This document shows, in pieces, positions 9,893 to 63,141 of a stretch of DNA of 64,000 nucleotides. Each line of letters begins with the position of its first letter. The first letter of the stretch is position 1. The notes beneath the pieces were generated by a model that was not told the DNA's origin, ran no database searches, and saw only the letters and a program-made list of their open reading frames with translations. This DNA is from Eledone cirrhosa (Eukaryota). Where the stretch lies: assembly GCA_964016885.1 (NCBI GenBank), contig OZ024765.1, positions 744,001 to 808,000 of the forward strand, written 5' to 3'. The position numbers were made by a program, and so were the translations under genes.

Positions 9893-10000
9893 TAGGAACG
9901 AGTAGGTCCTACTCGTTCCTATTACCCACTCTACTACTCTAAGTATTGAGTACTTTGGTGCGTTATGGTCCATCTGGTTCCTTACCACACTTCCTTCGTT
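9893..10000 (+). mobile_element. Fold-back element family P2 (Penelope-like terminal fragment), short palindrome plus tail
   Basis: Perfect palindrome TAGGAACGAGTAGG-T-CCTACTCGTTCCTA (9893-9921) and a tail shared with 29231-29422 and 44005-44187; (TA)n on both sides. Confidence 0.7.
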
Positions 10001-11592
10001 ATATATATATATGTGTGTGTGTGTATGTATAGGTAAACTATATTTATATATGTATTATATAGATAAAAATATAACGTATGTTTGTTAAATATATATTTAT
10101 ATATATAATATATAGCTAAAAATATGATGTAAACATATGAATATGGTTATATGTGAAATAGTGATGATCTAATGTTGCACACATCTCTGATACACAGTAG
10201 TAGTAGTAGTAGTAGTAATAGCAGTAATAATAACAGTAGTAGTAGCAGTAGTAGTAGTAATAACAGTAGTAGCAGTAGTAATAATAATAGTAGCTGTAGC
10301 AGTAGTAATAACAGTAGCAATAGTAGTAGTAGTAGTAGTAGTTGTAGCAAGAGCGCCATTTATATCAGACAATACTTCAGAGAAAGAATCTATGCTTGAA
10401 AAAGAGAAATCTAAGATGGCCGCCGTAATTCTATAGACATACTACATGTTAAATTACTTGGGAAGACATAAATATACTTTGCTGGAGATACATAGAGAAG
10501 TCATGCGTTGTTGTTATTTTCATTTGGCAAGCATTAACAGCCGACTGTGTGTATATATAAATATATATATATTATATATATATTACATATATATATTACA
10601 TATATATTACATATATATATATTATATATATATTTATATTATATATTATATATATATATATATATTATATATATATTATATATATATAGATATATTATAT
10701 ATTATATATATATATATTATATATATATATAATATATATATTATATATATATATATATATTATATATATATGTTATATAGTATACACAACGACCATTACT
10801 TTGCATATATATATACATGTGTGTATATATATATATATATATGGTATAGACTGCCACTAGAAGGGGGAAGTGTATCGATGGCTGTTTGAGTGTGGGGTGT
10901 GTATATATATACATACATATGTATGTATATATATTTATATATTTGTAGATCTACATATGCATACATATATATGTATATATTTATATATGCATATAAATAT
11001 ATAAACATATATATATATATATAATGTCCCTCTCTGCTTCCCTCTCTCCCTCTCTCTTCCCCCTCTCTCTCTATATGTTCCCCCCTCTCTCTCTCTCTCT
11101 ATATATATATATATACATACACACACAAATATATATATATACATATATATATATATATATATATATATATTGTAGCTATCTATAAAATTGATCGATTAGT
11201 CAGAAATTGCTTCCTAATAGGATTCAGATGGTGAAGATAAGAATGTGATTTAGTGGTCAACGAGATTCTAGACGTAGCTACACGTGAATATGTCTAACTG
11301 TCGGACATCGAAGAACGAGATTTAGTAGAGAGAGAGTCTCGCCAATTAGACAAACTAGATACATCGCCAAATAAATAGCATAGTTTGGCGAACGTTAATC
11401 TAGGCCTAACCTGAAGAGATTTCTATGTGTATCGTGTATATATATATATACATAATTATATATATATATATACATAATTATATATATATATATATATATA
11501 TACACACGTGTGTATGTGCGTATTTATATATATATATATATATATATATATTATATACGTATATATAAATGTATATATAGTATACATATAAT

Positions 11593-11771
11593 AGCAAGGA
11601 AGCCCAAAAAGGAATTGCATGGAGGATGTCTGTCGGGTTTAAGCTAGGTCTGGCCCAAGTGAGACTGGTGGACAGAAACATATTGAGCGGGCCGCTACGG
11701 AGCGCTGTCAGGCAGGACCCACCCCTATTAGGGATCAATCGTGTCCTAAACAAAAACTGGATGATGATGAT
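11593..11771 (+). mobile_element. 3' end of an RTE-like LINE with (GAT)n tail
   Basis: GC-rich island starting GGAAGCCCAAAAAGGAATTGCATGGAGGAT (degenerate GRP..W..D motif) and ending GATGATGATGATG. Confidence 0.5.
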
Positions 11772-11874
11772 GTGTATGTTTTGTGGAGTGTTCTAAAGAT
11801 TGTTTGTAATGGTGTCTAAGTTTGATAACCCTAGATAAAAGATTGGTGTTTTAAAATGCGGCGATAACTCTAAA

Positions 11875-58570: not shown

Positions 58571-59639
58571 ATTATTATTATTGTTATTGTTGCTGAAAAC
58601 AATAATATTAATATTGTCTTTACAGGTGAGTGACAAAACATTGGATACAGTTATCGCCATTTTGATGTTATCAAGTATGGTGGCTGTCCAGTGACTGCAA
58701 GTATCAAACGTTTTAAAAATCACCATTTCGCAGAGAGAGAGAGACCGGAGAGAGAGGGGGGAATAGAGAGAGAGAGAGAGAGAGAGAGAAATACATATGT
58801 ATATACTTACATACTTATACAAATACTCTTTCTTTCTATATATATATATATGTGTGTATATATGTATATATATATATATATACATATATGTATATGTGTG
58901 TATATACATATATATATATATGTATAATATATATATGTATATACAGGGTGTCCCCAAAAGCGTGTATATATGTATGTGTGTGTATATGTGTATATATATT
59001 TATGTATATATTTGTATATATATATATATATACATATATACATATATATATATATATATATATATATATATACACTAATTTATACATACATATATACATA
59101 GATACATATATATATACACACATACATATATATATATATATATAAATACAAGTATACGAGTATATGCACATATATACATATATATATATATATATATATA
59201 TATATATATATGTACGTGTATGTTTCTTCCCATATACACTATCTCTACATATACTACCTTCATATATCCCCTCCGCAACAACAACAACAATAAAATCAAC
59301 AAAAGCAGCACACCTCTAAAAAAAAAGATCTTCCTGATGATATTAATGGCTGAAATGATGAAACGCCGTGCTGACAGTAACAACGTCATTCTGAAAAGTC
59401 GGCCATTTTATGGCGAGATATTGTTGTGTGGTTTTCATGCATAATTCTTGCAAGTGGATACAATTGTGGCTGGTTTCTAGGGAAAAATGTTGGTCTGTGT
59501 TGGTTTGTTATGTATATAGCTACTCTGTATGTGTGTGTGTGTGTGTGATATTATATATATATATATGTGTGTGTGTGTGTGTGTATATATATATATATAT
59601 ATACATATTTATTTATTTATATATACATATATATAATAT

Positions 59640-62430
59640 ATATATATATATAGTATAAATGTATACATATTATATGTATATGTATAGTATAAATATATAC
59701 ATGTTATATATATATATATATTTGTATATATATATATATATATTCTAAATATATATATATATATTTGTATATATATATATATATATATATTCTAAATATA
59801 TATATATATATTTGTATATATATATATATATATATATATATATTCTAAATATATATATATATATATATATATATATATATATATTCTAAATATATATATA
59901 TATATATATATATATATATATTCTAAATATATATATATATATATATTCTAAATATATATATATATATATATATATATATATATATATTCTAAATATATAT
60001 ATATATATATATATATATATATATATATTCTAAATATATATATTCTAAATATATATATATATATATATATATATATATATATATTCTAAATATATATATA
60101 TATATATATATATATATATATATTCTAAATATATATATATATATATATATATATATTCTAAATATATATATATATATATATATATATATATTCTAAATAT
60201 ATATATATATATATATTTGTATATATATATATATATATATATATATTTGTATATATATATATATTTGTATATATATATATATATTTGTATATATATATAT
60301 ATATTTGTATATATATATATATATTTGTATATATATATATATATTTGTATATATATATATGTTTGTATATATATATATTTGTATATATATATATTTGTAT
60401 ATATATATATTTGTATATATATATATTTGTATATATATATATTTGTATATATATATATTTGTATATATATATTTGTATATATATATTTGTATATATATAT
60501 TTGTATATATATATTTGTATATGTATATATATTTGTATTTATATATATTTGTATATATATATATTTGTATATATATATATTTGTATATATATATAGAGAG
60601 AGATTTGTATATATAGATTTGTAGATATATTTGTATATATATATATATTTGTATATATATATATATATATTTGTATATATATATATATGTGTATATATAA
60701 ATGAAAGGTATAGATATTTGTATATATATATATATTTGTATATACATATATATATACATATATACATATACATATATATACACATATATATATACATATA
60801 TACATATATATATATTTGTATATATATATATACATATATATATATTTGTATATATATATATACATATATATATATTTGTATATATATATACATATATATA
60901 TATATATACATATATATATATATACATATATATATATACATATATATATATATATACATGTATATATATATTTGTATATATATATATATATATATTTGTA
61001 TATAAATATATATTTGTATATATATATATATATTTGTATATATATATATATATTTGTATATATATATATATATATTTGTATATATATATATATATTTGTA
61101 TATATATATATATATATGGGGGAGTGTATATATGTGTGTGTATATATATATATATATATGTATATATATATATGTCTGTGTGTTATAAACACATATACTA
61201 TATATATGTATATTTATGTATATATATGCATATATTTACATATATATATATATATATATATATATATACACACAATCCTCCATACATATATATGTGTTAG
61301 TATATGTATATATAGAAATATATTCATTTACATATAATGTGCTTTAAAATCGTCAAAGTGTAAGAAATATGAATAATTTGTGTCTAAATAAACATTTCCT
61401 GTAAATTGATACATATATATATATATATATATATATACATACATACATATACATACCTATGTACACATAGATATATATATGTGTGTGTGTGTGTGTATGC
61501 ATATACATATGTGTATATTTATATATATATAAATATATACATATATATGTGTGTGTGTATACACATATATCTCTCTATATATATGTGTATATATACACAA
61601 ATCTCTCTCTCTCTCTCTCTCTATACATAAATACATACATATAAGTAAATATGTGTGTGTGTGTATTTATATATGTGTGTGTAGAAGGGGGTGTTGTTTA
61701 TCAGTATCTACCGATGCATCAACACATGCATGCTAATTTGAATATCCTGTTTGCATATTAATGCATATTTCTGTACTAATGTCCCTCTACATTGTTTCCT
61801 CTGTAAATACATATATTGTAAATATCCATATATTTACAGCTGCCTCTGTGTATATGAGTATATGTATATATATGTATATAAATGTATGTATATATAGATA
61901 TGTGTATATATATATACATATATATATGTGTGTGTATATATATATATATGTATGTATATATATATGTGTGTGTATATATATATGTATGTATGTATATATA
62001 TATGTATGTATATATATATATGTATATATGCATGTATATATGTATGTATATATATATATGTATATATGCATGTATATATGCATGTATATATGTATATATA
62101 TATATGTATATATATGTATATATGTATGTATATATATATATGTATATATATATATATATATATACATATATATATGTGTGTGTGTATGTATATATGTATG
62201 TATATATATATATGTATATATATATATATATATATACATATATATATGTGTGTGTGTATGTATATATATATATATGTACATATATATATATGTATGTATG
62301 TATATATTGTTGTGTGTGTATATTTATGCATATAAATATGCATATATACAATGTATGCATGAATACAACCTCACACACTTATATGTATATATATATATTT
62401 ATATATATATTTATATATTTATATATATAT
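59640..62430. repeat. Large (TA)n-derived arrays (TTCTAAA, TTTG, CA and TG punctuated domains)
   Basis: Direct reading; short unique gaps near 61320-61410 and 61680-61850. Confidence 0.9.
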
Positions 62431-62974
62431 CTGCTAATGTGCACAATCGCCTGCGAGGTCATACTCACCTGTACACACCGATATATACTCTCAATATATA
62501 TATATATATATATACATACAAACTCATCTAGCTCTCTATCTATTTATCTCCCTTTTCGCTTTCTCGCTCTTTTTCGCTGAGAAAGTAAAAATCTACTTAA
62601 ACCAAATTTCAAAGCCGCTTTAACAAAAGACAGTTTTTACTTACACGAATTTCTACTTAATTCTCAGAAATATGGCCTCCCTGTCTGTCAGTTCGCTATC
62701 TATGGAATATACAAGATAGGGGGAAAATAGTTTAAAAAATTCCAGCAGACAATAAAGTCACTAGGCGAGAGAAGACAATCTTTATAGCGAATATTTCATG
62801 TATATTCATCATAATCAAATATCGTCTGCTATTTTCTCTCCCAATTGGTTCGTGTAAAATGGATGCATTGCATTCTAACTCTTTCTTAAGATCCACACCA
62901 TTTGACCTCTCTCTATATATATCTCACTATCTATCTATGTATCTATATATATATATATATATATATATATATAT

Positions 62975-63141
62975 AATGTAGGAGGTGAGTTTTATTGTAG
63001 TACAATAAAGCAATGCAGATATCGGATAAGAAGCACTCTACAGTTTGTGGGACTGGAGTATGCATAATATAAGATCAAAAGATGGTTAAAGGAGTTCCAT
63101 ATATATGGAACTCCTTTAACCATCTTTTGATCTTATATTAT
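62975..63141 (-). mobile_element. Fold-back insertion (78-bp perfect palindrome plus ~90-bp tail), family P5
   Basis: ATAATATAAGATCAAAAGATGGTTAAAGGAGTTCCATAT|ATATGGAACTCCTTTAACCATCTTTTGATCTTATATTAT (63064-63141); (TA)n flanks. Confidence 0.65.

What the first reader, a model, noticed from the sequence alone, without database searches (positions are those of the whole stretch)
9893..63141. Seven fold-back 'palindrome plus tail' insertions from five sequence families, all in (TA)n
Seen: 9893-10000, 18210-18370, 29231-29422, 44005-44187, 47171-47633, 53742-53930 and 62975-63141 share one architecture: a short unique segment whose one end is copied in inverted orientation, with the inverted arm running out into (TA)n. 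Three of the five families contain hammerhead sequence. Known: Penelope-like elements carry hammerheads in pseudo-LTRs that are often inverted and truncated. Inference: a dense community of (TA)n-targeting Penelope-like retroelements whose integration routinely involves a fold-back template switch, seeding hairpins through the genome. This is the best candidate for a distinctive system here.
Basis: partly seen in the sequence, partly recalled or inferred. Interest (0 to 1): 0.75.

Follow-up and report, generated by a model that had tools for sequence, protein, structure and literature searches.

The report
Two-armed Penelope retrotransposon stubs
These seven hairpins are short, cut-off copies of five Penelope-type jumping genes that insert in TA repeats, a layout already known for this group, and their ends suggest that the enzyme likely copies the first 100-300 bases of its own RNA onto both sides of one DNA cut.

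Summary
The seven structures are real and fall into five families with 71 to 37,115 exact motif matches each in this 3.0-Gb genome. Every family extends, in longer natural copies, into a reverse-transcriptase plus C-terminal GIY-YIG frame. Four carry the motifs of the Hydra clade of Penelope-like elements (PLEs), already reported in (TA)n in octopus; the fifth is a canonical CCHH-type PLE. Inverted 5'-truncated copy, one-sided tail, junction palindromes, hammerheads and (TA)n targets are all published PLE features, and the window is not unusually dense. The scan noted that two-ended reading before on other DNA of this genome. Added here: inner arm ends pile up at one edge per family, 30 bases behind a TATA-like box in two families, with an extra G in one; the stubs are likely run-off copies to the capped 5' end of the mRNA. 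No RNA data were available to test this.

The parts
9893..9999 (+). Family A stub (Hydra-type PLE): inverted arm 9893-9906, direct arm 9908-9921, 78-nt tail 9922-9999; begins 2 nt inside the predicted hammerhead cut site
12977..13178 (-).
18212..18369 (+). Family C stub: long inverted arm 18216-18282 ending at the family's inner edge, remnant direct arm 18283-18306, tail to about 18366
18231..18283 (-). Complete type I hammerhead motif (stem I 7 bp, core with one change, stem II 4 bp, stem III 3 bp) in the inverted arm of the family C stub
   Evidence: the only descriptor hit in the window; 0-1 in 10 shuffles
29232..29422 (-). Family A stub: tail 29232-29309, direct arm 29310-29362, inverted arm 29370-29422; each arm holds the 3' half of the hammerhead
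44005..44184 (+). Family A stub of another subfamily (tail 88% alike): inverted arm 44005-44052, direct arm 44059-44106, tail 44107-44184
47171..47633 (+). Family B stub: inverted arm 47171-47399 (longer, reaches the family's inner edge), direct arm 47400-47542 with hammerhead core at 47439, 91-nt tail 47543-47633
53742..53929 (+). Family D stub (canonical CCHH-type PLE): inverted arm 53742-53802, direct arm 53820-53880, 37-nt tail 53881-53917 inside the first codons of the ORF (ATG at 53851), then a 12-nt repeat of an upstream piece
62976..63141 (-). Family E stub: 88-nt tail 62976-63063, direct arm 63064-63102, inverted arm 63103-63141; cut downstream of the family's hammerhead

Best explanation
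The seven segments are 5'-truncated insertions of five Penelope-like retrotransposon families, and each was likely made by the element's reverse transcriptase priming from both ends of a cut (TA)n target at two fixed sites on its RNA. One target end starts at the far end of the tail, the other at a TA 60-90 bases upstream (37 in family D); both copies run towards the RNA's 5' end and are joined head to head, often through a few shared bases, which gives inverted arm + direct arm + one tail. Because both start sites lie in the 5' leader of the message (the pLTR), many copies likely run off at the transcription start after 100-320 bases, which would explain why the palindrome centres pile up at one edge per family. 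Shown: family identity, fixed outer ends, one-sided tail, clustering of inner ends. Inferred: two priming events, transcription start, cap copying. Confidence about 0.97 for PLE identity, 0.7 for two-ended priming, 0.6 for run-off at the transcription start.
For: Links to RT + GIY-YIG: A L195, L347; B L360, 894 aa between two pLTRs; C L344, L345; D L122, L129 with Pfam RVT_1 E 2.6e-11 and GIY-YIG above cut-off; E L160. Family C model (pLDDT 55.6, low) has TERT as best PDB fold match, E 4.8e-4; Atlas neighbours carry GIY-YIG, RVT_1 and HTH_animal. Fixed ends in 30 position-ordered copies per family: outer end of inverted arm at one site in 21 of 22 (A) and 14 of 16 (E); 3' end in (TA)n in 29, 25, 27, 30 of 30 (A, B, C, E). 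One tail only: 25 of 25 partners of tail-less A arms carry the tail; 16 of 17 (A) and 8 of 9 (C) arm-sampled palindromes have exactly one. Against pure fold-back: inverted arm longer by over 15 nt in 2, 7, 5, 4 copies of A, B, C, E, direct arm longer in 1, 4, 2, 3; 5 of 25 paired A insertions have a tail-only side sharing nothing with the arm; the same joints appear in independent contigs and reads. Longer arm ends within a 10-19-nt window in 17 of 22 (A), 12 of 20 (B), 15 of 19 (C), 8 of 16 (E). That edge is 30 nt behind a TATA-like box in C and A; an extra G precedes 10 of 12 C arms starting at the edge against 10 of 48 elsewhere, 8 of 10 after dropping two templated cases, p about 4e-4. In vitro an anole PLE cuts and extends both strands and starts at two internal sites flanking the tail (PMC11167929, parts 1-2 of 4 read).
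Against: A perfect palindrome later trimmed by an off-centre deletion could also give a longer inverted arm; I could not exclude this. The edge windows were drawn after seeing the data. The extra G is not general: 5 of 17 at the commonest A start, and the E cases (4 of 5) can be explained by overlap or slippage; in C a G could also be a one-base extension on the hammerhead stem I partner. B and E have no TATA box 30 nt upstream; their edge sits on a 6-base self-complementary word, which suits snap-back as well. Three window copies (9893, 53742, 62976) do not reach an edge. Pfam finds no domain in the six A, B, C, E frames scanned (one weak GIY-YIG match, E 3e-4, below cut-off, for B), and a profile search of the PDB found nothing relevant. 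Family D differs: most of its 30 motif hits run on into the ORF and only 2 of 30 plus the window copy end at the 37-nt tail. The counts include two insertions sampled twice (L272/273, L255/256), a few doubtful arm calls (L241, L249, L269) and long copies whose 5' end lay out of reach (3, 4, 5, 11, 9 of 30).
Confidence: 0.7

Rival explanations
1. One cDNA, primed at the tail end, folds back and copies itself; the endonuclease then cuts the new strand at the start of the tail and joins it to the other target end. Asymmetric copies arise later by deletion inside the palindrome.
For: Many centres are perfect or have 2-8 shared bases; the B and E edges are self-complementary words; arms within one insertion usually carry the same subfamily variant (seen; not counted); PMC8557442 ascribes the tail to endonuclease resolution.
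Against: Cannot make an inverted arm longer than the direct arm, or a tail-only side (5 of 25), without a second event; slippage across a hairpin is expected to shorten both arms (general knowledge); two start sites were seen in vitro.
Confidence: 0.22
2. Two-ended priming is right, but the inner edge is a reverse-transcriptase stop at RNA structure or a processing site, not the transcription start.
For: In C the edge is also the first base of hammerhead stem I; in A it lies in loop II; B and E lack a TATA box; a few A copies begin near the predicted ribozyme cut (L201, L204, window 9893).
Against: 30-nt spacing from a TATA-like box in two families, initiator-like words at all four edges, sharp upstream edge with a downstream trail and extra G in C.
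Confidence: 0.25
3. The segments are non-autonomous DNA transposons (MITEs, Helitron-type hairpin elements).
For: Short, inverted repeats, TA flanks.
Against: All five extend into RT + GIY-YIG frames in tandem or inverted arrays; inner ends vary between copies; repeats are head to head, not terminal.
Confidence: 0.01
4. The palindromes are assembly or read-chimera artefacts.
For: No read spanning a window locus was seen; one search lists no piece that spans the whole stretch.
Against: Arms differ from each other at 2-4 sites; outer ends are fixed at one base across contigs; in two Illumina runs 2,645 and 2,194 reads show (TA)n joined at that base.
Confidence: 0.01

Closest known systems
Hydra-clade Penelope-like elements (Craig et al. 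2021, PMC8557442: abstract, passages, sections 11 and 15, rows of File S1; includes Hydra-1_Obim, 2,507 bp, (TA)n)
   Same: RT then C-terminal GIY-YIG; DKT; RW-x motif; CxCx5C linker; CxxC and CxH around E and N; no CCHH; hammerhead in the pLTR; (TA)n insertion.
   Different: Units here are longer (tandem periods about 3.7, 4.1 and 4.5 kb for E, B, C against generally under 3 kb); tails are about 62-91 nt against 30-40; copy numbers reach tens of thousands, mostly stubs. Whether any family is Hydra-1_Obim itself was not tested.
Canonical endonuclease-bearing PLEs with inverted pLTR and tail (Drosophila virilis Penelope, PMC2377424 passages; Adineta Pen2a, PMC3846280 passages and Discussion)
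   Same: Inverted 5'-truncated copy next to a direct copy, optional one-sided tail that covers the first codons, palindromes at the junction, TATA and initiator in the pLTR. Family D matches closely (37-nt tail in the ORF start, GxKF, DKG, CCHH).
   Different: In A, B, C, E the tail is near-obligatory on one side and lies upstream of the start codon (seen for B, C, E); those papers do not tie the inversion centre to the transcription start in the parts I read.
Anole Poseidon PAc in vitro (Frangieh et al. 2024, PMC11167929, parts 1-2 of 4)
   Same: Internal start of reverse transcription near the 5' part of the RNA, two start sites bounding the tail, both target strands cut and extended, AT-rich target.
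   Different: Another clade; the paper explains the tail, and in the parts read gives no account of the inverted arm or of run-off products.
L1 twin priming and retroviral minus-strand strong-stop DNA (both recalled, no call)
   Same: Two target ends prime on one RNA; a short run-off copy to the capped 5' end.
   Different: L1 inversions do not duplicate the same stretch; strong-stop DNA is tRNA-primed and is not inserted as such.

Membership tests
EN+ Penelope-like elements | Telomerase-like RT and GIY-YIG endonuclease in one frame | tested here: met
   D: Pfam RVT_1 + GIY-YIG in one 588-aa frame. B 894 aa, C 759 aa single frames with YRDD and YIG motifs; C model nearest to TERT. A seen only as 5'-truncated or shifted frames, E as two frames split by a shift.
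EN+ Penelope-like elements | Partial tandems forming pLTRs | tested here: met
   L122, L123 (D), L160, L161 (E), L345 (C), L360 (B); no tandem of A was recovered.
EN+ Penelope-like elements | Inverted 5'-truncated copy and one-sided tail | tested here: met
   also at kilobase scale (L160, L194, L361)
EN+ Penelope-like elements | Hammerhead motif in the pLTR | tested here: met
   Own descriptor and patterns: C 44, B 42, E-like 35 (includes sister families), A 14 distinct copies; A has the U3-A8 core in 11 of 14, a variant described for PLEs in PMC4209133. Rfam gave no hammerhead match (none among the best 150 rows). D: none by descriptor. Cleavage not tested.
Hydra clade (families A, B, C, E) | CxCx5C linker; CxxC and CxH beside the conserved E and N; no CCHH | tested here: met
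   4 of 4 families
Hydra clade (families A, B, C, E) | DKT instead of DKG; RWK motif; no GxKF/Y | tested here: met
   DKT in B, C, E; RWK in B, RWR in C, RWT in E. The N-terminus of A was not recovered.
Hydra clade (families A, B, C, E) | Insertion into (TA)n | tested here: met
   3' flank 29, 25, 27, 30 of 30
Hydra clade (families A, B, C, E) | Placement in the RT phylogeny with named Hydra elements | not tested
Neptune or Nematis clade (family D) | CCHH endonuclease, DKG, GxKF and a CX2-5CxxC linker | tested here: inconclusive
   CCHH, DKG, GPKF present; the linker has three cysteines spaced 4 and 6, not the stated pattern. Clade left open.
Naiad clade | GIY-YIG N-terminal to RT | tested here: not met
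   Endonuclease is C-terminal in all five.
Non-LTR retrozymes | Non-coding tandem monomers with a hammerhead | tested here: not met
   The stubs are ends of coding elements, not monomer arrays.

The most novel reading that the evidence does not exclude
Most short PLE insertions in this genome are paired run-off cDNAs: the enzyme primes both target ends at two fixed sites in the 5' leader of its capped message, copies to the transcription start (sometimes copying the cap as an extra G) and joins the two products head to head. The inverted pLTR would then be the PLE counterpart of strong-stop DNA, and tens of thousands of stubs would map each family's start site and two priming sites to the base.
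Probability: 0.5. Interest if true: 0.62.

Novelty: new member of a known kind. Interest (0 to 1): 0.38.

Why it matters
How PLEs form their inverted and tandem ends is named as an open question in PMC8557442. These families give young intact frames (B 894 aa, C 759 aa) and thousands of stubs with base-exact ends, so the start sites and the two-ended model can be tested directly. The stubs look like MITEs or microRNA hairpins (Rfam gave sub-threshold microRNA matches for the 29310 hairpin) and are easy to mis-annotate. If transcribed they would be a large source of double-stranded RNA; that was not tested.

Tried and rejected
Rfam on the whole window: the best 150 rows were microsatellite-driven microRNA matches; on 8 short stretches no hammerhead. 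The repeat finder was swamped by (TA)n. DNA search with the family E stub returned nothing, although a pattern then found 2,244 matches. rank by likeness and are biased towards the query's shape, so counts use the position-ordered pattern sets. One search gave false arms from (TA)n flanks and was redone; I use only for the window copies. The B and E rows hold false seeds in simple sequence and sister families and are not used for counts. The ORF in L195 first looked like family C and proved to be family A. I first called A, B, C, E Neptune-type from memory; the Hydra motifs replaced that. My strict hammerhead descriptor missed A and B; family patterns found them. The two window hammerheads do not fold as such by energy alone. 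Profile search of the PDB: nothing relevant. Sequencing runs: no RNA holder listed, so small RNAs, editing and RNA starts were not examined. Papers that gave nothing on this layout: PMC12602865, PMC13282606, bioRxiv 10.64898/2026.07.22.740005 (passages). [quoted passage not shown]
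Full report
Observation. All seven segments are present between (TA)n-type runs. Three are one family (A: 9893, 29231, 44005); the others are B (47171), C (18210), D (53742) and E (62975). Arms are 14-143 bp and 92-100% alike; five folded hairpins have z-scores of -5.8 to -26.3. Six of 55 TA-bounded unique segments in the window are fold-backs and all six are among the seven; 18210 shows only 13 bp of arm. An eighth copy, family B without an inverted arm, lies at 12977-13178.

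Copy number. Exact 26-30-base tail motifs match 37,115 (A), 2,876 (B), 8,070 (C), 71 (D) and 2,244 (E) places, with 0 for the reversed controls; these are lower bounds. Family-A tails occur 11 times in 272,520 bases of flanks of loci picked for other families, 2.6 per 64 kb against 3 in the window, so the window is ordinary for this genome.

What the stubs belong to. Longer natural copies run from each tail upstream through a 3' untranslated region into a frame for a reverse transcriptase followed by a GIY-YIG endonuclease. A: L195, L347, L205, L212. B: L121 and L360, 894 aa between two pLTRs. C: L194, L198, L344, L345, 753-759 aa, with a microsatellite-rich 3' region of about 2 kb. D: tandem units of 3,451 bp with Pfam RVT_1 and GIY-YIG. 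E: L160, an inverted copy, a partial tandem and a tail, the window layout at kilobase scale. Pfam misses the A, B, C, E frames, but they are 35-50% identical to each other, the Atlas places C among GIY-YIG/RVT_1-bearing animal clusters, and a low-confidence model of C has telomerase RT as best fold match. D has GPKF, DKG and CCHH and is a canonical PLE of unresolved clade.

Hammerheads. Rfam finds none. A structural descriptor finds a whole type I motif on the minus strand of the C stub and in full-length E; family patterns find the core, GAAA and stems in B, and in A with a U3-A8 core in 11 of 14 copies, a variant known from PLEs (PMC4209133). A stubs keep only the 3' half. D has none by descriptor.

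Ends. In 30 position-ordered copies per family an adjacent inverted arm is found in 22 (A), 20 (B), 19 (C), 8 (D) and 16 (E); 3, 4, 5, 11 and 9 copies were too long to score. The outer end of the arm is fixed (21 of 22 in A, 14 of 16 in E; three TA sites in C) and joins (TA)n; the tail end is fixed too. In independent Illumina runs over 2,000 reads each show (TA)n joined at the family-A arm end. The tail is on one side only: 25 of 25 partners of tail-less A arms carry it; arm-sampled palindromes have exactly one tail in 16 of 17 (A) and 8 of 9 (C), the two exceptions being long copies out of reach of the test; two-tailed forms are rare (L222, L272/273, L255/256). Tails measure about 78 (A), 91 (B), 62-75 (C) and 88 (E) bases, upstream of the start codon where seen, and 37 in D, inside the first codons.

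Mechanism. A single tail-primed cDNA that folds back can only give an inverted arm equal to or shorter than the direct arm. The inverted arm is longer by over 15 bases in 18 of 77 scored A, B, C, E copies and shorter in 10, as in window copies 47171 and 18210, and in 5 of 25 paired A insertions one side is tail only and shares no sequence with the arm. Both sides read as antisense cDNA from their own target end, so two priming events at two fixed sites explain the layout most simply; an anole PLE does cut and extend both strands and start at two sites bounding the tail (PMC11167929). Later one-sided deletion from a perfect palindrome remains possible. Earlier notes of this scan reached the two-ended reading on other DNA of this genome; they are not independent support.

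Where the arms stop. The longer arm ends within a narrow window in 17 of 22 (A), 12 of 20 (B), 15 of 19 (C) and 8 of 16 (E) copies (windows drawn after seeing the data). In C the edge is sharp on the upstream side and lies 30 bases behind a TATA box; in A the commonest start lies 30 bases behind a TATA-like word at an initiator-like site; B and E share a pyrimidine-CATATG word without a TATA box (promoter consensus recalled). An extra G precedes 10 of 12 C arms that start at the edge, against 10 of 48 elsewhere; 8 of 10 remain after dropping two templated cases (p about 4e-4). Copying of the cap is known from other retroelements (recalled), but the excess is absent in A (5 of 17) and a one-base extension on hammerhead stem I could also give it. 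The likely reading is run-off at the transcription start of the pLTR promoter. No RNA run was listed, so this is untested. A word look-up of earlier findings for this point returned nothing.

Comparison and verdict. Inverted 5'-truncated copy, one-sided tail and (TA)n bias are described for PLEs in PMC8557442; junction palindromes, TATA and initiator in the pLTR and a self-priming explanation in PMC3846280; transcription from within the pLTR in PMC2377424; curation guides list the layout (PMC8969392). The finding is therefore a set of new members of a known kind, not a new system. What it adds is a base-exact record that favours two-ended priming over fold-back and points to the mRNA start as the usual stopping place; searches listed no paper saying so, within a library that lacks subscription papers. 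Interest 0.38.

Noticed in passing
window 12977-13178: Family B copy on the minus strand with tail and hammerhead core but no inverted arm; preceded at 12913-12957 by a short piece also seen inside L198.
   Followed up: partly
window 53918-53929; L242, L253: After the 37-nt family D tail comes a short direct repeat of an upstream piece of the element, in the window and in two other copies, as if copying began at one TA and jumped to the tail end.
   Followed up: partly
window 36160-36222: A hairpin of about 28-bp arms that is not bounded by (TA)n and matches none of the five families.
   Followed up: no
window 16598-16812: Interspersed repeat (5 loci) holding a word like the one shared by the A and C tails; perhaps the end of another Hydra-type family.
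   Followed up: no
window 667-907, 1076-1330, 17378-17619, 36677-36822, 41348-41953, 51053-51364, 58358-58591: A very common short interspersed repeat of about 240 bp, found in 60-85 of the fetched loci; SINE-like.
   Followed up: no
window 26145-26857 and 34053-34828: Two related copies of another interspersed repeat (19-22 loci).
   Followed up: no
L194, L195, L198, L345: Family C carries about 2 kb of (TA)/(TG)-rich microsatellite inside its 3' untranslated region, conserved between copies, so it spreads target-like sequence; A and D copies are nested in it.
   Followed up: partly
L322 (family D pLTR, about 240-205 bases upstream of the motif): A hammerhead-like stretch with a changed core and a 4-bp hairpin before GAAA, seen by eye; the descriptor did not accept it.
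   Followed up: partly
L098, L109, L114, L121, L158, L163, L217, L218, L405: Several further minimal hammerheads with the same stem I as family E but other stems II: more sister families.
   Followed up: no
G000: The family C arm motif is strand-skewed genome-wide (8,634 forward, 6,802 reverse), unlike the other motifs; perhaps a tandem array somewhere.
   Followed up: no
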